Shown here piece by piece: positions 6,630 to 43,458 of a stretch of 64,000 bases of DNA. The notes below the pieces were generated by a model. It saw only the letters and a list, made by a program, of their open reading frames with translations, was not told the origin of the DNA and did not search any database. This DNA comes from an uncultured Planctomycetaceae bacterium (GTDB lineage: Bacteria > Planctomycetota > Planctomycetia > Planctomycetales > Planctomycetaceae). The stretch covers positions 8,491 to 72,490 of the forward strand of contig CAYVFI010000032.1 in the NCBI GenBank assembly GCA_964450955.1, in the 5' to 3' direction. Each line of letters begins with the position of its first letter. Positions within the stretch are counted from its first letter, which is position 1. The position numbers were made by a program, and so were the translations under genes.

Positions 6630-6941
6630 CGATCGTGTGTTGGCATTGCTACGTCCTCGCCAGTGACCACACGGACGTCCGGAGTGCTAAATCGGTACCG
6701 TTGCTCCGCCCGCCGAATCGGCGGCAGCCCGTAGTCAATCGCGAGGTCCTGGAGGTACGCAATCTCAGAAGTCGAATGCAACCCGCTGTCGACATCGACG
6801 CGATACACCGGGACTTGGGGAATGAGACACAGCAACACGGGTACTACCAGCATTAGATTGCCCATTCGTGGTTGTGAAAGCAGAAAAAGCGACCGCAAAC
6901 TGAGTCTGCGGTCGCTTCGAATTTTGGCTGGCTACGGACTA

Positions 6942-8291
6942 TTACTCGCCGTCAGCGTCGCCTTTCTTCTCAGACTTGGCGTCTTTTTTCTCTTCCGAGT
7001 CGCCATCGTCTTCTTCAGATTCTTCTTCGTCTTCATCGTGGTTGCTGAGATCAACTTCGTGGCCGGCTTCGGCCATGAGTGTCTCAAGAGCTTTGTCGAG
7101 ACTAGCACCGCGAACGTTCTTGTAGCGAATTTTGCCTTCACCATCGAGGACATAGATTGTCGGCCAAGCGCTGACATTCCATGCTTTTGAAATTGGTCCG
7201 CGGGTGCCTTCCGGGCCATTCCAAAAACTACGCCACGAGATGTTCTCTTCTTCAAGAACGTCCTTCAGCTTTTCTCGATCACCGTCGCTGTTAACGCCAA
7301 TCAAAGCAAATGGTTTACCTGCGAGCTTCTTCACGAGCGACCGCTCGTGAGGGTACATAGCCCGGCAAGGTCCTCACCAATTGCCCCAGAAATCCAGCAA
7401 CACAATTTTGCCTCGATAGTCGGTGAGTTTGAACTCAACACCATCCAGGTCTTCGGCTGCGATTTCCGGAGCTTCTTTGCCAATGCTTAAGTACTGAATT
7501 TCGAACAGCGCGTCCTTCGCACTGTCGCCGATTGGTACCCCGCGTCGTTCGACAGAGGCGTACTTCTTCACCACGGTTTCGTAGAGCGCCTCAACTTCTT
7601 TCAGCGTCTCACCCTCGGCACCACGTGCCATCAGGTCGGCTAACGACATCGTCGCCAGAGCCTTTACAGTTTCGGAAGGGTTCTCTTTGATCAGCGATCG
7701 AAACCGTGCTTCGGCTTTCGGGCGAGGTACACCAAAGCCAGAGACTCCCACGACCAGCTCCATGGCTTCGCTGTCGGCGTAGTTTTCAAACATGAAGTCC
7801 AAAGCCGATTGCCGTTTCTCAGCCGGTCCATTGGCGGCAATCCACGCCATCGATTGAGCAGCAATCTGCTCCATCTCAGCCAGATATTGTTCTCTATCGG
7901 GTTGTCCCTTTGATTTCAGATATTTGGTGACCGCGTCGCGACCTTCCTTAGCTGCCTCGCGATAGCCTTTCATGAAGTTCTTGTCACGTGTCGCCTTCAT
8001 GAACTCCTGAGTCTTGCTGTCGTAAGAATCAGTCAGACTCCTGACGGCATCGAGAGCCGGGGTCTTCACGACTTCTTTGACGGCTTCCTTTTCAGGAGCA
8101 TCTTCGTCTTTCGAGTCATCTTCTTCTTTGGCGTCTTTCTTTGCTTCTTCCTTTTCGCCCTTTTCCTGGTCTTCAGCCTTCTTGTCTTCCTGAACCGGAG
8201 CAAAGGCTACCGGATCTGGTTCAAACGCGTTTGTCGCGTCGAGGCCGAACAACAGCAAGAGGCCGGCGATCAATATGCCGGAGTGCCGCAT
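6942..8291 (-). CDS. TlpA/ResA-like thioredoxin-family protein, candidate selenoprotein. An in-frame TGA at 7374..7376 is read as Sec, giving the motif W-U-G-P-C.
   Basis: ORFs 7374..8456 (ending ...KIVLLDFWGNW*) and 6942..7358 are in the same frame and separated only by a TGA. Translating through it gives FWGNW-U-GPCRAMYPHERSLVKKLAGKPFALIGVNSD, a textbook thioredoxin WCGPC active site with Sec in place of the first Cys. The probable start is MRHSGILIAGLLLLFG at 8291 (signal peptide). Acidic K/E/D-rich low-complexity regions follow the signal peptide and occupy the C-terminus. Confidence 0.6.
7331..7350 (-). promoter_or_regulatory. Candidate bacterial SECIS hairpin downstream of the UGA at 7374..7376
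   Basis: The mRNA 3' of the UGA is GGACCUUGCCGGGCUAUGUACCC then UCACGAGC-GGUC-GCUCGUGA. This is a perfect 8 bp stem with a 4 nt loop containing G and U, starting 24 nt after the UGA. Confidence 0.4.
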
Positions 8292-8441
8292 GGTCTGTCT
8301 CCAAAGTGGTAAATGGGGTTTGGTCAAATGGATTGTGTCTTGAATTGCATCCGACCGAAAGTTCAAACATCGGTAAAGAGCACGGTTTGTCTCACGCACT
8401 GGCATTCTGTGCCCACCAGCTTCACGATATAGGAATACCGT

Positions 8442-10262
8442 TTGAACCGAGAACATCGACCCATGACTGTTAAGTCCCTTGCATTCACGCTGCTACTCGC
8501 CCTTTCTGCTCAAGTGCTGGCTGTCGAACGGCCCAACATCCTGTTCATCACAGTCGATGACATGAGCTGCGATTCCGTTGGAGTTTATGGCTGCAAATTA
8601 ATCGGCACGACGCCCAATATGGATAAATTGGCCGGCACAGGCCTGCGGTTTCAGCACGCTCACGTGCAGGTCGGCAACTGTATGCCGTCCCGAAACGTAA
8701 TGTGGACGGGACGGTATCCGCACAACAACCGAGTCGAAGGTTTCTATCAGATCAAGAACCCGGAGTATCCTCATCTTGTGGATTTGATGAAGGGGGCCGG
8801 TTACTTCGCGGCCATCCGCGGCAAGCATACTCACTCAACACCATACAACCCATACGCCTGGGATATCGTGCTGGATGGAAACAACGGTCGGAACAACCTG
8901 AAGAACGCCGCGTCGTACTACGATTCGACAAAGCAAGGCATAATCCAAAGTGGCGACAAACCGTTCTGCGTCATGGTCAACATTTCTGATCCGCACAAGC
9001 CGTTCTACACGGGCCCGAACGATCCGAATCAACCATCGAAGACGTTCAAGGCAGCCGAAATACCGGTTCCTGGATTTCTGTTTGATAACCCTCAGATTCG
9101 AAAAGAACTCGCGCTGTACTACTCGTCAGTGCGACGGGCTGACGACTGTGTAGGTTCAGTTCTGAAAGCACTGGATGAATCGGGTGAGCGTGAGAACACG
9201 ATCGTCTGCTTTCTGTCAGACCACGGCATGCCACTGCCGTTTGCGAAAACTCAGCTGTACCGACACAGCACGCATACACCGCTGATGATTCGCTGGCCGG
9301 GCGTGACTAAACCAAATTCGGTTGATGATACGCACGTTGTGTCTGCCATTGACTTGCTGCCCACACTGCTGGACATGACGGGAACCAAACACCCGGACGG
9401 TCTGGAGGGGCATTCGTTGGTTCCGATACTTAAAGGCGAGACACAGAGCGATAGGGAATTTGTGTTTAAGGTCTACAACGAAAACGCCGGCGGGGTTCGA
9501 CAACCAATGCGAAGTGTCGATTCCAAACGGTTCGGCTACATCTTTAATCCATGGTCAGACGGAAAACGAAAGCTCACAGGCGCGACGTTGGGGACGGCTT
9601 CCTACAAGGCCATGCAACATGCGGCACCCAACAACCCATTCGTTTCATCAAGGCTCAATACATTCGTGTATCGAGAGCGCGAAGAGTTCTTCGACTACGA
9701 GGCCGATCCCGACGCGCTGCGGAACCTGATTGACGATCCAAAATACGCAGACCAAATCGCCAGGCACCGCGCGGCGATGGTGGGGTTCATGACGCGAACG
9801 CACGACCACATGCTAAACGTCTTCAAGAACCGCGGCGACGAACAAACAGTTCAGGCCTATATGTCCAAAGTCGAATCGGAATCCGCCGCTCGGCGTAAGA
9901 AGAAGCGAGCCGCAAAACAAAGCGGGCAAAACAGACAAAACGGCGGTGCGAGACGAAAACGTAAACTGATTTCTATCAAGCCAGGCGACGCCAGGTCAGG
10001 CGAACCGCTAACGGTGATCATTAACCACAAGTTGCCCAAAGCGCTGGGAGAACAGAAAGTGCATGTCACCCTGAAGAATGCCGATCAGAAGCGGATCGAC
10101 CGGCAAGTCATCACAGTCAGCGGCACCGGTCGGGCCACGGTCACATTCAATGTCGATGAAGACAAAATCGCGAATGGCCCAGTGTCCTACGCCGCATTTG
10201 TTGGCGAAAATTACGGCAGCAATCTGCAGCATGTGACATCGAAGCCAGTGAAGGTTCGCTGA
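8442..10262 (+). CDS. Sulfatase (arylsulfatase family), secreted, with a basic linker and an extra C-terminal domain
   Basis: 606 aa ORF with a signal peptide. The sulfatase signature C-x-P-S-R is present (GNCMPSRNVMWTGRYP). A C-terminal RRKKKRAAK...RRKRK basic stretch is followed by a ~100 aa domain. Confidence 0.85.
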   Translation: MNREHRPMTVKSLAFTLLLALSAQVLAVERPNILFITVDDMSCDSVGVYGCKLIGTTPNMDKLAGTGLRFQHAHVQVGNCMPSRNVMWTGRYPHNNRVEGFYQIKNPEYPHLVDLMKGAGYFAAIRGKHTHSTPYNPYAWDIVLDGNNGRNNLKNAASYYDSTKQGIIQSGDKPFCVMVNISDPHKPFYTGPNDPNQPSKTFKAAEIPVPGFLFDNPQIRKELALYYSSVRRADDCVGSVLKALDESGERENTIVCFLSDHGMPLPFAKTQLYRHSTHTPLMIRWPGVTKPNSVDDTHVVSAIDLLPTLLDMTGTKHPDGLEGHSLVPILKGETQSDREFVFKVYNENAGGVRQPMRSVDSKRFGYIFNPWSDGKRKLTGATLGTASYKAMQHAAPNNPFVSSRLNTFVYREREEFFDYEADPDALRNLIDDPKYADQIARHRAAMVGFMTRTHDHMLNVFKNRGDEQTVQAYMSKVESESAARRKKKRAAKQSGQNRQNGGARRKRKLISIKPGDARSGEPLTVIINHKLPKALGEQKVHVTLKNADQKRIDRQVITVSGTGRATVTFNVDEDKIANGPVSYAAFVGENYGSNLQHVTSKPVKVR

Positions 10263-22251: not shown

Positions 22252-23751
22252 CTACTTTTGGCCGAAGTCGTTGTACATTTTTTGGATTTGTTGTCGGCTT
22301 CGGATGCTGGGTTTGGTGCCGCCGTAATATTTGTCGCGGATCCACTTTGGTTGCCAGCGATCGGGAACGCGTTTGGTCGTTGAGAAATCTACGGCTTTGG
22401 GCTTTGGCTTCTTGCTGGTGAGTGGCACCTTGTCGCCCCAGGCTTTCTGCCAGTCCGATAGTTTGGTCATGAGCCGATCGACGTGCGGTTTGTGGTCGGC
22501 CGAATTGGCAAGGTTCTTCATTTCGCTGGGGTCGTTTTTCAAATCAAACAGCTGGGTGTGATTGATTTGTGGATAACGAATCAGCTTCCAGCGGTCTTCA
22601 CGCACCGATCGTTGATGGCTGGTGTACTGCAGGTAAACCTCGTCGCGAACTTTGTTTCTGGTTCCCTTCCAAATCGATGAGAGGTCTTCTCCATCCAGGT
22701 TGGCAGGCGCTTTGAGTCCTGTCATTGAACACAGCGTCGGGTAGATGTCCAGCAGGTAAGAGAACGCGTTGGTTGATTTGCCGGCGGGGATACCGTCCCC
22801 GACGAAGACCAACGGGCACCGCATGCTGTGTTCGTAAACGCTTTGTTTGCCCAGCAAGCCATGGCTTCCCATCGCCAGGCCATGATCGGCGGCATAGATG
22901 ATGATTGTGTTGTCCGCTCTGCCTGAATCTTCCAGAGCTTTCAGAACGCGCCCGATCTCGACATCCAGGTGATCGACCATGCCGTAGTATTCTGCCAGTT
23001 GATCACTCACCATATCTTTGGGTCGCGGCCAGGGAGCCAGGCTTTCGTCGCGACCCGTCATGAAGCCGTTGTTGAACGGATGCTGTGGCAGAAAGTTGTC
23101 GGGCAGCGGAGGCCGTTTGTTGTAGTACTTTTTCCGGTACTCCTGCGGTGGCTGACGCGGGTCGTGCGGAGATGTAAACGCGGCGTAGGCGAAGAACGGT
23201 TCTTCTGAATCCTTCTGCTTGCTTAGAAAATCAGTCATCGCATCTGCGAACAACGTGCTGGAGAACCCGTCACCAATCCGCTTGTTCACAAGTTTTCCGT
23301 CAACAATGTCCTGCAGCGGAACCTGAATGTGGTCGCTCATGCCGCCCATGTACACGGCCTTGCCGCTTTCAAAGCTGCGCAGGATTGATTGGTCGCCGTT
23401 GTGCCATTTGCCGGTTGCGAATGTCTTGTAGCCCTGCGTTTGCAGCAGCTGACCCAGCGTCGTTTCGCCCTTCATGAGATTGTTTGAATGCATCCAGTGC
23501 TTGCCCGTGTGCAGCATGGCTCGACTGGGAACACAGACGGCTCCGGAGTTAGAACCGAAGCAGTAGTTCTGCTTGAAACTGAAACCACGCTTCACCAGCG
23601 AATCGATATTCGGCGTATCGATATTGGGGTTCCCCCAGGCACCAATTGTGTCGGCACGTTGGTCGTCGGCAAACAGCAAGAGGATGTTGGGACGTTCGGC
23701 TGCGTGCAGTTGAGGGAGAACCAGAATTGCGAGGATCAGAATGCGTTTCAT
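22252..23751 (-). CDS. Sulfatase (arylsulfatase family), secreted
   Basis: The start is set at MKRILILAILVLPQLHAAERPNILLLFADD (ATG at 23751) rather than the longer upstream ORF. The sulfatase signature is present (CVPSRAMLHTGKHW). Confidence 0.85.
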   Translation of the reverse strand: MKRILILAILVLPQLHAAERPNILLLFADDQRADTIGAWGNPNIDTPNIDSLVKRGFSFKQNYCFGSNSGAVCVPSRAMLHTGKHWMHSNNLMKGETTLGQLLQTQGYKTFATGKWHNGDQSILRSFESGKAVYMGGMSDHIQVPLQDIVDGKLVNKRIGDGFSSTLFADAMTDFLSKQKDSEEPFFAYAAFTSPHDPRQPPQEYRKKYYNKRPPLPDNFLPQHPFNNGFMTGRDESLAPWPRPKDMVSDQLAEYYGMVDHLDVEIGRVLKALEDSGRADNTIIIYAADHGLAMGSHGLLGKQSVYEHSMRCPLVFVGDGIPAGKSTNAFSYLLDIYPTLCSMTGLKAPANLDGEDLSSIWKGTRNKVRDEVYLQYTSHQRSVREDRWKLIRYPQINHTQLFDLKNDPSEMKNLANSADHKPHVDRLMTKLSDWQKAWGDKVPLTSKKPKPKAVDFSTTKRVPDRWQPKWIRDKYYGGTKPSIRSRQQIQKMYNDFGQK

Positions 23752-24016
23752 CGGTGAGTTCTCGTGGTGAGTCGTTGTTGCTATGTCTGGGCGGAGTGGC
23801 GCGCGGAGGGGCTGAGGATAAACTGGATGCTCACTGTTTTTGGGTGGCCGTGTTTGGATTGAGGAACCAGCGAATCTCCGGTAGTTTCGGGGCTTCTTTC
23901 GCAGGCTCATTCCAGTCCTGGCTTGCCACGCAACCTGTTTTACGGCCAGGTCGTGGCGAACAAAGCGGCCGCCGCGATTATTTTCGAACCGCAGCGGCCG
24001 CAATGTCAGTCGCTTA

Positions 24017-25492
24017 TCACTTCCAGCCCGCACCCTTCGTGCTGGTTTTCACTCGGCAGACAAATGCGTCAGCCGTGATATAAAGAGTCGTTCCATCGCC
24101 GCCCCAGCCGCAGTTGGCTGTCGCCTGACCGGTATCGATTCGACCCAGTGGAGTTCCATCCGGTGCGAAGACATGAACGCCGCCGGGGCCGGTGGCGAAC
24201 AGGTTGCCTGCTTTGTCGACCTTGAGACCATCGGGTAGTCCCTTCATCTTGCCGACCAATGAGGTCGCGTCGAAAAAGACTTTGCCCGGGCCAATGGTTC
24301 CATCGTCTTTGACGGGGAACGCTTTCCAGATGGCGGCCTTCGGATCTGACTGGGCGACATACAGAGTTTTCTCATCGGGAGAAAACGCGATGCCGTTTGG
24401 CCTGGTCATCTCTTTGGTCAGCAGCGTTAGCTGGCCGTCTTTTGAGAGACGGTAGACGCCGCAGAAGTCGAGTTCCCGACGTGGGTCGTCAAACCGTTTC
24501 GGAAGCCCGTACGGCGGATCCGTGAAATATAGATCGCCGTTGGATTTGAAGCAGGCGTCGTTGGGGCTGTTAAGCCGCTTGCCCATGTAGTTGTCAACGA
24601 GAGTCCGCTTGCCGCCGTCTTTCGTTATCACAGACACGCGGCGATCGCCGTGTTCGCACGAAACCAAACGACCCATGGAATCCAGCAGCAAGCCGTTGCA
24701 ACCAGGTTCTCCACCGTACTTGCTGACGCCAGTGAAACCTGACGGCTTCAGATACACCTTCGCTTCGCTCCAACCTTCCCGCCACTGATACACTGAGTTG
24801 CGCGGGATGTCAGAGAATAGAAGCGAACCGCCTTCGTCGTCGGCGACCCAGACAGGCCCTTCCGACCAGTCGTGGCCTTTGGCCAGTACTTCGATTGACG
24901 CTCCAGTCGGAATCAGTTTGTCGAACCGTGGATCCAGACGAACGATGTTGCCAAAGCCAGAACCTGCTGACGCGCTTGCCTGAGCCACGCCAAGTTCTTT
25001 TAGCTTACGAACAAGATCGCTACCCGCGTTTCGTGTTCCACCCCGCTCGATTGCGGCGATCTTGCCGTTCTTGTCGATGTAGATTGTCTTGCGAGCCGGA
25101 TACAGCCGGTTTGGGTTCGTGACGACACCGTATGCCATCGCGACCTTGCCGGTTGGATCACTGAGAATTGGATAGTCGAGATCAAGGTTCCTGGCGAACC
25201 GGGTATTGATCTTGATGGGGTCACAACTGGCGGTGAAGTAGGCAACGTCGAAGGCCTTAATGGCTTTGCCGCTCTCACGGAGCGACTTGCATTGAGCCGT
25301 TCAACCGCCGGTTTCGGCCTTTGGGAACCATGACAGCACGACGGCTTTGCCTTTCATGTCAGCAAGTGCGTAAGTCTTGCCATCACTACCCTGCAAGCTG
25401 AAGTCAGGCGCGGTGTCGCCCACGCTAAGTTGTTGGGCAGATGCGGGAATCGCACATGCCAGCAGTGCGGCCAAAACTGTTGCGGCACGCAT
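24017..25492 (-). CDS. Fusion protein: BCP-type peroxiredoxin with selenocysteine at the peroxidatic position (in-frame TGA at 25301..25303) plus an SMP-30/gluconolactonase/LRE-like beta-propeller
   Basis: ORF 25301..25585 ends ...[13 protein letters not shown]. Reading through the TGA continues in frame as [65 protein letters not shown]...[13 protein letters not shown] and joins ORF 24017..25138. The region aligns residue by residue with E. coli Bcp (FYPKAMTPGCTVQAC; CP=Cys45 becomes U, CR=Cys50 conserved). The likely start is [20 protein letters not shown] (signal peptide, ATG at 25492). Confidence 0.6.
25268..25286 (-). promoter_or_regulatory. Candidate bacterial SECIS hairpin downstream of the UGA at 25301..25303
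   Basis: The mRNA after the UGA is ACGGCUCAAUGCAA then GUCGCUC-CGUGA-GAGCGGC. This is a 7 bp stem (one G.U pair) with a 5 nt loop containing G and U, starting 15 nt after the UGA. Confidence 0.4.
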
Positions 25493-26916: not shown

Positions 26917-28134
26917 TTACCGCTCTGTAAGCAGTTCCTTCACAAGTTCTTCATATCGCGCGCGAAGCTTTTTGTAGGCTTCGCCGGTGGCGGGGCCGCT
27001 GAATCCGGTGTACACGGCGCGCACACTTCCGTCGGCTCGAACAAAAATGGTGGTCGGGTACGAACGCACTTTGTCGATCAGCGGGAACTGCCTGGTCGCG
27101 GTGGACTTGTCTGACAAACCCGCCAGCAGAACCGGATACTGTGTGTTGTGGCGTTTGATGTATCGCTTCACCATTTCGACATCACGATCGAACTCGCCCG
27201 TGTGTTCGAACGCCAGGCCCACAATCGAAAGGCCACGCGGACCGTACTTGTTTTGCAGTTCAGAAAGATACAGGGCCGCGTCATGACAGTTGGGACACCA
27301 CGAACCAAACACCTGAATGAGCCGCGCTTTGCCGGCGAATTTTGGGTCACCCAGCGACGTCAGTTTGCCGTCAAGATCCGGGTACTTGATGTCGTTTAAG
27401 TTCACATCCTTAAGCACCGTGGACAGCCGGAACGCGTCGGGCAGTTCGGCCTTCGGATCCAGCTTCCCCGCGAATGTCTCGTGCCAGCTGTTACCCGACC
27501 AAAAATCACCGGCCAGCGTTCCATCTTCTTGTCGCTGCATCCGAAACAAAAACGCATGCGCGCCGTCGAAGACTGAGAGTTCAACGGAGTCCGGTTTCGC
27601 TGGCGGCTGAATTGTCAGGAACCGATAGTCGCCCGTTGTTGTGAGGAACGTGCCCCACGGCGCGTTGTCGGTTTTTCGAATGGAGAAGACACCCAGCGCG
27701 GGGTCATCGCTTTCAGAAAACTTCACGGACCACTTACCGACGTATGGTTTGAACGCAGCGTCTTGCGATGGAACCGATGACATTGGCCGCGCGACGAATT
27801 TCATCTCGCCGTAGCGTTCTTTGCCACGCCGTTTGCGGTATTGACCGACCAACTGATCGCCGTCAAGCCTGGCTTTTATCGTAGAATCGTAGTGTGGGAA
27901 CGACAGCGTGATGTTGTCGCCGTCCACCCGGACCATTGGGATTTCGATTCTCTCCAACGGATCCGAAATCGCGGCCGACCATTTGCCATCGCTGGAAGAA
28001 AGCAGCAGCGGGAACCGAATTGGCCCGCCCGGTGTTTGCAATTGAGCGTCATATTGGCCCGGTTTGATATCGGCCGCGTAAAGATTGCCTGCAGTCAGGG
28101 ACAGCAGGAACACGAAAATGACAGGGCGATACAT
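26917..28134 (-). CDS. TlpA-like thioredoxin-family protein (Cys form, WCPNC) with a large N-terminal domain; secreted
   Basis: The C-terminal thioredoxin fold has active site VFGSWCPNCHDAALYL. The start is set at MYRPVIFVFLLSLTAGNLYA (signal peptide). Confidence 0.75.
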   Translation of the reverse strand: MYRPVIFVFLLSLTAGNLYAADIKPGQYDAQLQTPGGPIRFPLLLSSSDGKWSAAISDPLERIEIPMVRVDGDNITLSFPHYDSTIKARLDGDQLVGQYRKRRGKERYGEMKFVARPMSSVPSQDAAFKPYVGKWSVKFSESDDPALGVFSIRKTDNAPWGTFLTTTGDYRFLTIQPPAKPDSVELSVFDGAHAFLFRMQRQEDGTLAGDFWSGNSWHETFAGKLDPKAELPDAFRLSTVLKDVNLNDIKYPDLDGKLTSLGDPKFAGKARLIQVFGSWCPNCHDAALYLSELQNKYGPRGLSIVGLAFEHTGEFDRDVEMVKRYIKRHNTQYPVLLAGLSDKSTATRQFPLIDKVRSYPTTIFVRADGSVRAVYTGFSGPATGEAYKKLRARYEELVKELLTER

Positions 28135-28207
28135 GCGACTCTCCAGTAGGGAGAATGCAACGTACCAGTCGAAGTGACCGCATTCCACTCAACCGCCGGA
28201 CGGGCTT

Positions 28208-42239: not shown

Positions 42240-42550
42240 CCTCGCTCACGCTTCGGGTTTTCATTGTTGCCGGGTTGTCCGGCTTTCGAGCGCGAGCAAC
42301 TATTTGGTCGATCATGTCCCGTTGGAAAGCGGCATCTTTGGAGTCAGCGTTCACTGTGTTTCTCGCAATGGTAACCCGACGCGTAAGCGAGGAAGCTCCT
42401 GCTTACGTTCTCGGCTCCTGCTTACGTTCTCGCTTACGCTTCGGGTTGTCATTTTTGGTTCCTGCTTACGTTCCTGCTTACGTTCTCGCTTACGTTCTCG
42501 CTTACGCTTCGGGTTGTCATTTTTGGTTCCTGCTTACGCTTTGGGTTTCC
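42240..42550. repeat. Cluster of REP-like palindromic repeats (left flank of the RAYT gene)
   Basis: Multiple copies of CTCGCTTACGCTTCGGGTT and the inverted partner GGTAACCCGACGCGTAAGCGAGG. There are 12-mer sub-repeats (CCTGCTTACGTT / CTCGCTTACGTT) and a duplicated ~60 bp block. Confidence 0.8.
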
Positions 42551-43031
42551 GGTCTTGTCCTTCAAGTGTGTACTGGACAACTTGATCAAGTCCGTCATCA
42601 TCAAAGATCCAACGAATACTGCCGCGTTCGGCCCACCAATTTTCCGTTTTCTGTGGCAGTGCGGCTTCTTTGAGTCGGCGAGTACACCACGCTTTCAGAT
42701 CAGCTCGAACTTTTTTTGGTGGAGTCTCGAACGCTCCCACGACTGCATGCATGTGGTTGGTCCGACAATTGACGGCGTGGCAAATCCACTTCCGATGATC
42801 GCAAGTTTCGCGAATCTGGGTTTCGACAATTTGACGTTGTTTATGGCTGAGAATCCTGGCTTCTTCACGCATCTTTGCCGCAGCCTCCAGTTCACGCACG
42901 GGATCCGGTAGCTGCCAACCCTTCTGATATTCGACCCATCCACGCTGATCGCCCGGCAGCCAGGTTCCGTAAGTCGCGATGGTGATAAAGAAGGCAATTG
43001 GATCGTTCATCAGGTAACTCCTTCGGAGCAA
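42534..43031 (-). mobile_element. REP-associated tyrosine transposase (RAYT; HuH-Y1, IS200/IS605 TnpA-like)
   Basis: 165 aa ORF with the HuH motif NHMHAVV. The C-terminal block WAERGSIRWIFDDDGLDQVVQYTLEGQ matches the RAYT consensus W-x-R-x-x-S...L...Y-x3-N/Q, including the catalytic Tyr. It is flanked on both sides by REP-like repeats. Confidence 0.7.
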
Positions 43032-43364: not shown

Positions 43365-43458
43365 CGGGAATGGATGGGAATCGAACCCACCTGGCGACTT
43401 TTCAGCCGCCACAACGGATTTGAAATCCGCGGCAGTCACCAGATCTGCGAACACTCCC
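43365..43458 (-). tRNA. selC: Candidate selenocysteine tRNA (anticodon UCA)
   Basis: The minus-strand sequence is GGGAGTG-TTC-GCAG-ATCTGGTGA-CTGC-C-GCGGA-TTTCAAA-TCCGT-TGT-GGCGGC-TGAAAA-GTCGCC-AG-GGTGGG-TTCGATT-CCCATC-CATTCCC-G. The acceptor stem is 7 bp and the T stem 6 bp, giving a 13 bp coaxial acceptor/T domain. The anticodon loop is UUUCAAA, with U33, anticodon UCA and A37. The variable arm is long (6 bp stem, 6 nt loop). The T-loop is TTCGATT, the discriminator is G73, and CCA is not encoded. The D-arm fold is ambiguous by eye. Confidence 0.65.

What the first reader, a model, noticed from the sequence alone, without database searches (positions are those of the whole stretch)
6942..8291. 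TlpA-like thioredoxin with in-frame UGA at the first CxxC position (W-U-G-P-C) and a downstream hairpin
Two adjacent same-frame ORFs are separated only by a TGA at 7374..7376. Read-through reconstitutes an uninterrupted thioredoxin active-site region, LLDFWGNW-U-GPCRAMYPHE...LIGVNSD. The UGA falls exactly where the nucleophilic Cys of WCGPC belongs, which is the classic UxxC arrangement of thioredoxin-fold selenoproteins. A perfect 8 bp stem with a GGUC loop (plus 7331..7350) begins 24 nt downstream of the UGA, as expected for a bacterial SECIS. A Cys-containing paralogue (WCPNC) exists at 26917..28134. Such a Cys/Sec paralogue pair within one genome is commonly seen for selenoprotein families. 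If this is annotated as two genes or a pseudogene, a selenoprotein would be missed.
Basis: seen in the sequence. Interest (0 to 1): 0.85.

Follow-up and report, generated by a model that had tools for sequence, protein, structure and literature searches.

The report
Unannotated selenocysteine TlpA-like periplasmic redox protein

Summary
One minus-strand reading frame (8291..6942) is interrupted only by TGA at 7376..7374, inside ...DFWGNW-U-GPC.... An 8-bp/GGUC hairpin (7350..7331) starts 24 nt after it.

The selenocysteine reading is strongly supported:
- All 93 distinct relatives I recovered (soil, marine and sediment metagenomes, planctomycete MAGs, down to 46% identity) keep TGA at this codon, followed by an intact, protein-constrained ~140-codon frame.
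- Cys homologs, and solved TlpA (1jfu), place the first Cys of WCxxC at this position.
- The five hairpin codons (CAC GAG CGG TCG CTC) show essentially no synonymous variation in 93 sequences, while neighbouring codons are saturated. Cys-form homologs encoding the same HERSLV peptide have lost the stem.
- The hairpin meets all four published bacterial SECIS criteria.
- A tRNA-Sec gene lies in the same window (43366..43458).

- Only the inner 6 bp plus loop are conserved, and there is no covariation because the stem is invariant.
- The "paralogue" at 26917..28188 is only a distant redoxin (26% identity).

NCBI, JGI and ENA hold the gene as two hypothetical proteins of 305 and 138 aa. TlpA-like UxxC selenoproteins have been known since 2005 and were listed for planctomycetes in 2016. 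This is a new member of a known kind, of modest interest.

The parts
6942..8291 (-). Complete read-through coding sequence: 449-aa preprotein with Sec306, stop TAA at 6944..6942
   Evidence: Orthologs have the same architecture with one TGA and an intact downstream frame. The start at 8291 matches the called gene P0001 and all orthologs.
7374..7376 (-). Sec codon UGA (residue 306), first position of the U-G-P-C redox motif; resolving Cys309 is at 7365..7367
   Evidence: TGA in 93/93 unique family sequences. It aligns with the first Cys of WCxPC in Cys homologs and of WCVPC in TlpA 1jfu.
7331..7350 (-). SECIS hairpin UCACGAGC-GGUC-GCUCGUGA; the family-invariant core is 7333..7348 (ACGAGC-GGUC-GCUCGU)
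   Evidence: -13.4 kcal/mol, z = -3.5. Codons +9..+13 have zero synonymous variation in 93 sequences. The inner 6 pairs are invariant, the 7th pair is present in 60/87 and the 8th in 7/87. The stem is degraded in Cys homologs encoding the same peptide. It meets the bSECIS criteria quoted.
8226..8291 (-). Predicted N-terminal signal peptide (aa 1-22, MRHSGILIAGLLLLFGLDATNA)
   Evidence: Read from the sequence: a hydrophobic helix at residues 4-16 in the model. Conserved in orthologs, while many Cys homologs have a lipoprotein-type ...GC N-terminus. Inferred; no signal-peptide predictor was run.
8061..8225 (-). Low-complexity acidic/lysine-rich linker (aa 23-77)
   Evidence: pLDDT below 50; composition visible; length varies among orthologs.
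7491..8060 (-). All-alpha TPR-like domain (aa 78-267), no Pfam match
7062..7484 (-). TlpA-like thioredoxin-fold domain (aa 270-410) carrying U306-G-P-C309 and the W-P-T cis-Pro loop
   Evidence: Pfam AhpC-TSA 65.9 bits, Thioredoxin_8 60.2 and Redoxin 56.1, all above gathering score. Best solved relatives are TlpA 1jfu (E = 2.7e-16) and ResA.
6945..7061 (-). Acidic C-terminal tail (aa 411-449)
   Evidence: present but variable in orthologs.
6886..6918 (-). Intrinsic-terminator-like hairpin (15 bp plus T-run) just after the TAA stop. None lies between the UGA and the stop.
43366..43458 (-). tRNA-Sec (selC, anticodon UCA), the decoding tRNA for the UGA
   Evidence: ARAGORN. Rfam RF01852 at 65.6 bits against a gathering score of 47, with a full-length match.

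Best explanation
The region is one gene for an exported, TlpA-like thiol-disulfide oxidoreductase with selenocysteine at its active site.

How it is made: translation starts at 8291. When the ribosome reaches UGA 7376..7374, the hairpin 31 nt downstream (core ACGAGC-GGUC-GCUCGU, 7348..7333) acts as a bacterial SECIS. It recruits SelB carrying Sec-tRNA-Sec (tRNA gene at 43366..43458), so Sec306 is inserted and translation continues to TAA at 6942.

What is made: a 449-aa preprotein with a signal peptide, a disordered acidic linker, a TPR-like helical domain, a thioredoxin fold bearing U306-G-P-C309, and an acidic tail.

How it works: in the periplasm Sec306 is the attacking nucleophile on a substrate disulfide. 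The resulting selenenylsulfide is resolved by Cys309. The TPR-like domain probably selects the protein partner.

Shown here: single frame, conserved UGA, protein-level constraint downstream, RNA-level constraint on the hairpin, tRNA-Sec, and TlpA-type fold.
Inferred: SelB binding, export, the catalytic cycle and the substrate.
For: 1. UGA conservation. TGA sits at the same codon in 93 of 93 distinct relatives, from seven ortholog lineages (46-88% identity) and 80 metagenome loci.
2. Translation past the UGA. Downstream residues are invariant although their codons vary. Gly +26 uses 4 codons, and Ser +29 uses AGC, AGT, TCC and TCG; both are 93/93 at the amino-acid level. Many invariant residues run from 308 to 416.
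3. Sec/Cys pairing. Cys homologs WC[GPD]PC and solved TlpA align their first Cys with the UGA.
4. RNA-level selection. Codons +9..+13 are fixed as CAC GAG CGG TCG CTC (one CTG exception), while flanking codons have 1-2 bits of synonymous entropy. Cys homologs that encode the same HERSLV peptide use CAT GAA or CAA GAG and break the stem, and the Cys homolog L002 has no hairpin.
5. The hairpin meets all four bSECIS criteria from PMC13188914. The loop has 4 nt (3-9 allowed) and starts GG. The stem has 8 bp (4-16 allowed). The loop lies 31 nt from the UGA (16-37 allowed). The MFE is -13.4 (threshold -7.5).
6. tRNA-Sec lies in the window.
7. TGA is otherwise an ordinary stop here, ending 8 of 28 long frames.
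8. A terminator follows the full ORF, not the UGA.
Against: - There is no covariation support for the stem. The six inner pairs never vary, and the outer two pairs are not conserved. The structural argument therefore rests on synonymous-site invariance and thermodynamics.
- selA, selB and selD were not found among the 18 window ORFs I scanned.
- No experimental selenium incorporation data exist.
- Two relatives have loop GGGC instead of GGUC, and one relative (L021) has TGG (Trp) at the site.
- The 31-nt UGA-to-loop distance is longer than in E. coli fdhF (my own knowledge), although it is within the published range.
Confidence: 0.9

Rival explanations
1. Pseudogene or two independent genes: a nonsense mutation split a former TlpA-like gene, and the 305-aa and 138-aa products (or neither) are what the cell makes.
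For: Public annotations call two separate hypothetical proteins. An ATG (MYPHE...) lies 15 nt after the UGA.
Against: The same TGA is kept in 93 distinct sequences down to 46% identity, with no second stop or frameshift. Amino-acid-level purifying selection continues downstream. Each fragment alone would lack half of the thioredoxin fold, and the active-site motif would be cut in two. No terminator or obvious restart signal lies between the parts.
Confidence: 0.02
2. Sequencing or assembly error: the true codon is TGC or TGT.
For: A single-base difference separates TGA from TGC or TGT.
Against: The identical sequence occurs in independent assemblies from JGI, ENA, Logan and NCBI. TGA is present in all 93 relatives from unrelated samples.
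Confidence: 0.01
3. The UGA is recoded but not as selenocysteine, for example by near-cognate Trp read-through or by Cys delivered through the Sec machinery. The hairpin would then act as a general read-through stimulator.
For: One relative (L021 / P0012, a cluster of 17 members) has TGG (Trp) at this codon with a nearly intact hairpin. This shows that Trp can occupy the site in at least one lineage.
Against: A dedicated tRNA-Sec is present. The position is the catalytic nucleophile, where homologs have Cys. The hairpin fits the SelB-type SECIS model with a GG-start loop. Trp at the nucleophile position would abolish redox chemistry.
Confidence: 0.05

Closest known systems
'Thiol-disulfide isomerase-like protein' selenoprotein family (cd02966 TlpA-like, UxxC). 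First reported from the Sargasso Sea metagenome (PMC1088965), listed in the 2026 review of prokaryotic selenoproteomes (PMC13188914), and listed as split two-gene candidates in a planctomycete genome (PMC4807772, Table S9).
   Same: TlpA-like thioredoxin fold, Sec in the first position of UxxC, widespread Cys homologs, a SECIS directly downstream of the UGA, and routine mis-annotation as two genes.
   Different: I could not compare sequences with the published representatives, which are not held here. Membership of that exact family is therefore by domain and motif only. The present clade adds a ~190-aa TPR-like N-terminal domain and a family-invariant 16-nt SECIS core.
Bradyrhizobium TlpA (PDB 1jfu, 4txo) and Bacillus ResA (1st9): periplasmic/extracytoplasmic thiol-disulfide reductases
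   Same: They are the best solved-structure relatives (E = 2.7e-16 and about 1e-14). Both have W-C-x-P-C at the same place and the same fold with a central insert.
   Different: They carry Cys, not Sec. This protein falls far below the NCBIfam equivalog or subfamily cut-offs (TlpA 58 vs 230 bits; ResA 70 vs 170), so it is not an ortholog. They are membrane-anchored and lack a TPR-like domain.
NCBIfam-curated ResA/TlpA-type selenoproteins: NF041054 'ResA-like WAxxUGC motif-containing protein' and NF053656 'TUGYCR motif thioredoxin fold (seleno)protein'
   Same: Thioredoxin-fold, ResA/TlpA-like selenoproteins.
   Different: The motif differs (W-U-[GP]-P-C here, against WAxxUGC and TUGYCR). Scores are far below cut-off (35 vs 300 and 21 vs 100 bits). 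No NCBIfam model captures this clade, which may explain why NCBI holds it as two fragments.
E. coli fdhF SECIS, the archetypal bacterial SECIS
   Same: A hairpin inside the coding region shortly after the UGA. By my recollection of the fdhF element, its apical loop is also GGUC and presents G and U to SelB.
   Different: The UGA-to-loop distance is longer here (31 nt). The stem is a perfect 6-8 bp with no bulged U. The comparison is from memory and was not computed here. Rfam has no matching model.

Membership tests
Bacterial selenoprotein gene (Sec-UGA plus bSECIS) | In-frame UGA at a position where homologs carry Cys | tested here: met
   Alignment A2 with 34 full-length Cys homologs (WC[GPD]PC) and phmmer against TlpA 1jfu (WCVPC) both place the first Cys at residue 306.
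Bacterial selenoprotein gene (Sec-UGA plus bSECIS) | UGA conserved among orthologs, with a protein-constrained frame on both sides | tested here: met
   93/93 unique sequences carry TGA. Downstream residues are invariant with varied codons, and there is no extra stop or frameshift.
Bacterial selenoprotein gene (Sec-UGA plus bSECIS) | Downstream stem-loop meeting the bSECIS model: loop of 3-9 nt with G in its first two positions, upper stem of 4-16 bp, 16-37 nt from UGA to loop, MFE <= -7.5 kcal/mol (PMC13188914) | tested here: met
   Loop GGUC, stem of 8 bp (6 conserved), 31 nt, -13.4 kcal/mol. bSECISearch itself was not available.
Bacterial selenoprotein gene (Sec-UGA plus bSECIS) | Evolutionary support for the RNA element | tested here: inconclusive
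   No covariation: the inner pairs are invariant. However, there is strong synonymous-site freezing limited to the hairpin codons, and the stem is lost in Cys forms that encode the same peptide.
Bacterial selenoprotein gene (Sec-UGA plus bSECIS) | Sec machinery in the genome (selC, selA, selB, selD) | tested here: inconclusive
   selC (tRNA-Sec) is present at 43366..43458. selA, selB and selD were not among the 18 window ORFs scanned. The rest of the genome was not available.
Bacterial selenoprotein gene (Sec-UGA plus bSECIS) | Selenium actually incorporated in the protein | not testable with these tools
   Needs 75Se labelling or mass spectrometry.
TlpA-like / thiol-disulfide isomerase-like thioredoxin-fold family (cd02966; Pfam AhpC-TSA / Redoxin / Thioredoxin_8) | Domain models matched above the curated threshold | tested here: met
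   PF00578 65.9 bits (cut-off 26), PF13905 60.2 (27) and PF08534 56.1 (26.6) on aa 270-396, with Cys substituted for Sec.
TlpA-like / thiol-disulfide isomerase-like thioredoxin-fold family (cd02966; Pfam AhpC-TSA / Redoxin / Thioredoxin_8) | W-[C/U]-x-x-C redox motif and the conserved cis-Pro loop | tested here: met
   W305-U306-G-P-C309 and W376-P377-T378 are invariant in the orthologs and align with the TlpA/ResA motifs. The cis conformation itself is inferred.
TlpA-like / thiol-disulfide isomerase-like thioredoxin-fold family (cd02966; Pfam AhpC-TSA / Redoxin / Thioredoxin_8) | Extracytoplasmic location | tested here: inconclusive
   An N-terminal hydrophobic signal-like segment is seen by inspection, and homologs have lipoprotein-like N-termini. 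No predictor was run.
TlpA proper (NF047696 equivalog) / ResA (NF002854) | Score above the NCBIfam trusted cut-off | tested here: not met
   58 vs 230 bits and 70 vs 170 bits. It is a relative, not an ortholog.
Curated selenoprotein families NF041054 (WAxxUGC) and NF053656 (TUGYCR) | Motif and score above cut-off | tested here: not met
   35 vs 300 bits and 21 vs 100 bits; the motif here is W-U-[GP]-P-C.

The most novel reading that the evidence does not exclude
The selenoprotein may be the dedicated periplasmic reductant for its divergently transcribed neighbour, a Cys-type sulfatase (8442..10262, CMPSR motif). It would keep the formylglycine-precursor cysteine, or another sulfatase cysteine, reduced, with the TPR-like domain docking the sulfatase. 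The orthologous sulfatase (65-87% identity) keeps this head-to-head position in nine distinct ortholog lineages, although the selenoprotein's own N-terminal part has drifted to about 46% identity. That would tie selenium use to sulfated-polysaccharide degradation, a hallmark of planctomycetes.
Probability: 0.08. Interest if true: 0.55.

Novelty: new member of a known kind. Interest (0 to 1): 0.3.

Why it matters
Practically, the result corrects an annotation. NCBI, JGI/IMG and ENA hold this gene, and apparently its whole widespread clade, as two "hypothetical proteins". No NCBIfam model captures it, so planctomycete selenoproteomes are under-counted.

The clade also offers a very clean natural example of a minimal bacterial SECIS. 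It has a 16-nt invariant core, relaxation is visible in Cys-converted relatives, and there is one Trp-converted relative. That makes it useful for benchmarking selenoprotein predictors and for studying Sec-to-Cys turnover.

It does not change what is known about selenoproteins. UxxC thioredoxin-fold and TlpA-like selenoproteins are textbook cases.

Tried and rejected
- Rfam found nothing at the hairpin, either with a permissive E-value scan of 6800..8500 or with a gathering-score scan of the whole window. The only Rfam hit in the window was tRNA-Sec.
- Covariation analysis of the 8-bp stem on 87 distinct sequences gave no signal because the stem is invariant. The single C-G to U-A double change (L001) is matched by several C·A mismatches in other sequences, so I do not count it as evidence.
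- RNAalifold found no conserved lower stem. The extended pairing in the window's own MFE fold is not conserved.
Only the N-terminal 305 aa were modelled.
- I searched for further selenoprotein genes in the window by listing all same-frame ORF pairs separated by TGA. Nothing convincing appeared besides this gene.
- I looked for selA, selB and selD among ORFs of matching size and ORFs next to tRNA-Sec. None were found.
- The in-window WCPNC protein is rejected as a true Cys paralogue, at 26% identity.
- Genome-wide TGA reassignment is rejected, because TGA ends 8 of 28 long frames.

Full report
**Observation.** On the minus strand an ATG at 8291 (GGAGA six bases upstream) opens a frame that runs to TAA at 6944..6942. 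Its only interruption is TGA at 7376..7374, inside KIVLLDFWGNW-*-GPCRAMYPHERSLVKKL. After a 23-nt spacer comes UCACGAGC-GGUC-GCUCGUGA (7350..7331). On its own this folds at -13.4 kcal/mol (z = -3.5; 0 of 200 shuffles as good), and it is the core of the local MFE fold. A 15-bp terminator-like hairpin with a T-run follows the TAA (6918..6886), and none lies between the UGA and the stop. The coordinates and description in the finding are correct.

**Not an error, not a pseudogene.** The 305-aa product that ends at ...DFWGNW is called on six contigs from independent JGI, ENA, Logan and NCBI assemblies. In the protein search, the ten closest cluster representatives (100% down to 46% identity) all end at exactly ...DFWGNW. 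I fetched their DNA. Every one has TGA there, followed wherever the contig continues by an uninterrupted frame of about 140 codons encoding a highly conserved thioredoxin-fold remainder.

A metagenome scan with an ortholog alignment returned 80 loci from soil, marine, freshwater and sediment samples. All carry TGA at this codon in DFWG[NDH]W-TGA-[GP]PC[RV]AMYPHERSLV. Across 93 distinct sequences the downstream residues stay fixed while their codons vary. Gly +26 uses four codons, and Ser +29 uses both the AGY and TCN codon families; each is 93/93 at the protein level. The region after the UGA is therefore translated and under purifying selection. TGA is otherwise a normal stop in this window, ending 8 of 28 long frames.

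**Sec/Cys pairing and fold.** With Cys substituted for the stop, residues 270-396 match Pfam AhpC-TSA, Thioredoxin_8 and Redoxin above gathering scores. The best solved relatives are Bradyrhizobium TlpA (1jfu, E = 2.7e-16) and ResA, whose WCxPC aligns with W-U-G-P-C. Thirty-four full-length homologs with WC[GPD]PC align their first cysteine with the UGA. The protein is a relative of TlpA and ResA, not an ortholog, because the NCBIfam scores are far below cut-off. It also does not belong to the two curated ResA-like selenoprotein models, WAxxUGC and TUGYCR.

**The RNA element.** The published bacterial SECIS model (PMC13188914, read) requires:
- a 3-9 nt loop with G in its first two positions;
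- a 4-16 bp upper stem;
- 16-37 nt between the UGA and the loop;
- MFE of -7.5 kcal/mol or lower.

Here the values are GGUC, 8 bp, 31 nt and -13.4 kcal/mol, so all four are met.

Evolutionary evidence comes from synonymous sites rather than covariation. Codons +9 to +13 are CAC GAG CGG TCG CTC in effectively all 93 sequences, with one CTG. Two sequences change Ser to Ala, which gives loop GGGC. Flanking codons of equally conserved residues carry 1-2 bits of synonymous entropy.

Pair counting shows that the six inner pairs never vary. The seventh (C-G) is present in 60 of 87 sequences and the eighth (U-A, as in this window) in only 7 of 87. No measure exceeds the shuffles.

A useful control comes from Cys-form homologs that encode the very same peptide. 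They have released these sites (P0011: CAT GAA...; P0047: CAA GAG...), which breaks the stem, and the more distant Cys homolog L002 has no hairpin at all. The nucleotide constraint is thus tied to the UGA. Rfam has no model that matches.

**Sec machinery.** ARAGORN and Rfam (65.6 bits against a gathering score of 47, full length) both find a tRNA-Sec at 43366..43458 on the minus strand of this same window. I did not find selA, selB or selD among 18 window ORFs. The rest of the genome was out of reach, so this criterion is only partly met.

**Rest of the protein.**
- Residues 1-22 look like a signal peptide.
- Residues 23-77 are a disordered acidic/lysine-rich linker.
- Homologs share this N-terminal domain, and many start with a lipoprotein-type signal.

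The likely mechanism is the usual one for this fold. After export, Sec306 attacks a substrate disulfide, and Cys309 resolves the selenenylsulfide. The TPR-like domain probably provides partner recognition. The substrate is unknown.

**Context and organism.** Neighbouring genes (sulfatases, DUF1501, DUF1800, PSCyt/PSD-type proteins in related loci) and the titles of related MAG records (Planctomycetaceae, Pirellulaceae) place this in Planctomycetota. The divergent neighbour is a Cys-type sulfatase. Its ortholog keeps that position in nine distinct lineages of the close clade, but not in the wider family. This is suggestive, not proof, of a functional link.

**What is known.** Selenoproteins called 'thiol-disulfide isomerase-like' (UxxC) were reported from the Sargasso Sea in 2005 (PMC1088965). 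The 2026 review lists that family as cd02966 (TlpA-like), UxxC, alongside a 'UGC-containing TlpA' family and Prx-like UxxC families. A 2016 planctomycete genome paper lists two 'thiol-disulfide isomerase-like thioredoxin' selenoprotein candidates, each annotated as two genes in IMG (PMC4807772, Table S9).

The present gene is likewise held as two hypothetical proteins of 305 and 138 aa in NCBI, JGI and ENA. I found no paper on this specific clade. I could not compare it directly with the published representative sequences.

**Verdict.** It is a genuine selenoprotein missed by annotation and belongs to a known kind. Interest is modest. The main value lies in annotation repair and in a very clean SECIS-constraint example.

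Noticed in passing
window 43366..43458 (-): A tRNA-Sec gene (anticodon UCA) lies 36 kb from the selenoprotein gene. Its flanks hold DUF1800/DUF1501 genes and a weak IS200-like remnant (42534..43031), not selA or selB.
   Followed up: yes
window 7356..7364 (-) (codons +4 and +7 after the UGA): Two codons between the UGA and the hairpin are synonymously frozen across the family: Arg +4 is CGG in 85/88 and Tyr +7 is TAC in 87/87. No conserved pairing partner was found, and the cause is unexplained.
   Followed up: partly
L021:1218-1290 (ENA ERZ23488090; protein P0012, cluster of 17 members): A relative has TGG (Trp) instead of TGA at the Sec codon (DFWGDW-W-APC) with the hairpin almost intact. 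This looks like a recent Sec-to-Trp conversion that should inactivate the nucleophile.
   Followed up: partly
L102:301-1521 (P0011) and L104:134-1321 (P0047): Cys-form homologs still encode the HERSLV / ERSLV peptide and keep a decayed 'fossil' of the SECIS hairpin, with synonymous changes in the 5' arm. This suggests Sec-to-Cys conversion from a Sec ancestor.
   Followed up: partly
L027, L033, L041, L042, L044, L062, L097: These loci hold tandem Sec-containing copies: a long form (TPR-like domain plus Trx) followed by a short form (signal peptide plus Trx only), each with its own TGA and identical hairpin. L097 holds two such Sec copies plus a WCGPC Cys copy.
   Followed up: partly
window 8442..10262 (+); also L001, L011, L013, L014, L015, L018, L019, L022: A Cys-type sulfatase (CMPSR motif) is transcribed divergently from the selenoprotein gene. 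Its ortholog (65-87% identity) keeps this position in nine distinct ortholog lineages, but not in L016/L017 or in the wider family. A second sulfatase lies at 22252..24033 (-).
   Followed up: partly
L014:2389-2445 and L022:2383-2439: Two relatives have loop GGGC instead of GGUC (Ser to Ala in the protein). The third loop base is therefore not strictly required in the family.
   Followed up: no
protein P0005 (495 aa, JGI metagenome): This gene call starts inside the C-terminal fragment of one Sec copy (VAMYPHERSLVK...). It runs on into a second copy whose active site is degenerate (FQGNRYSPGRDMHAYERSL), lacking both redox residues.
   Followed up: no
window 26917..28188 (-): This is a distant redoxin-domain protein with WCPNC and an unrelated ~260-aa N-terminal part. 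It shares only 26% identity with the selenoprotein's Trx domain.
   Followed up: yes
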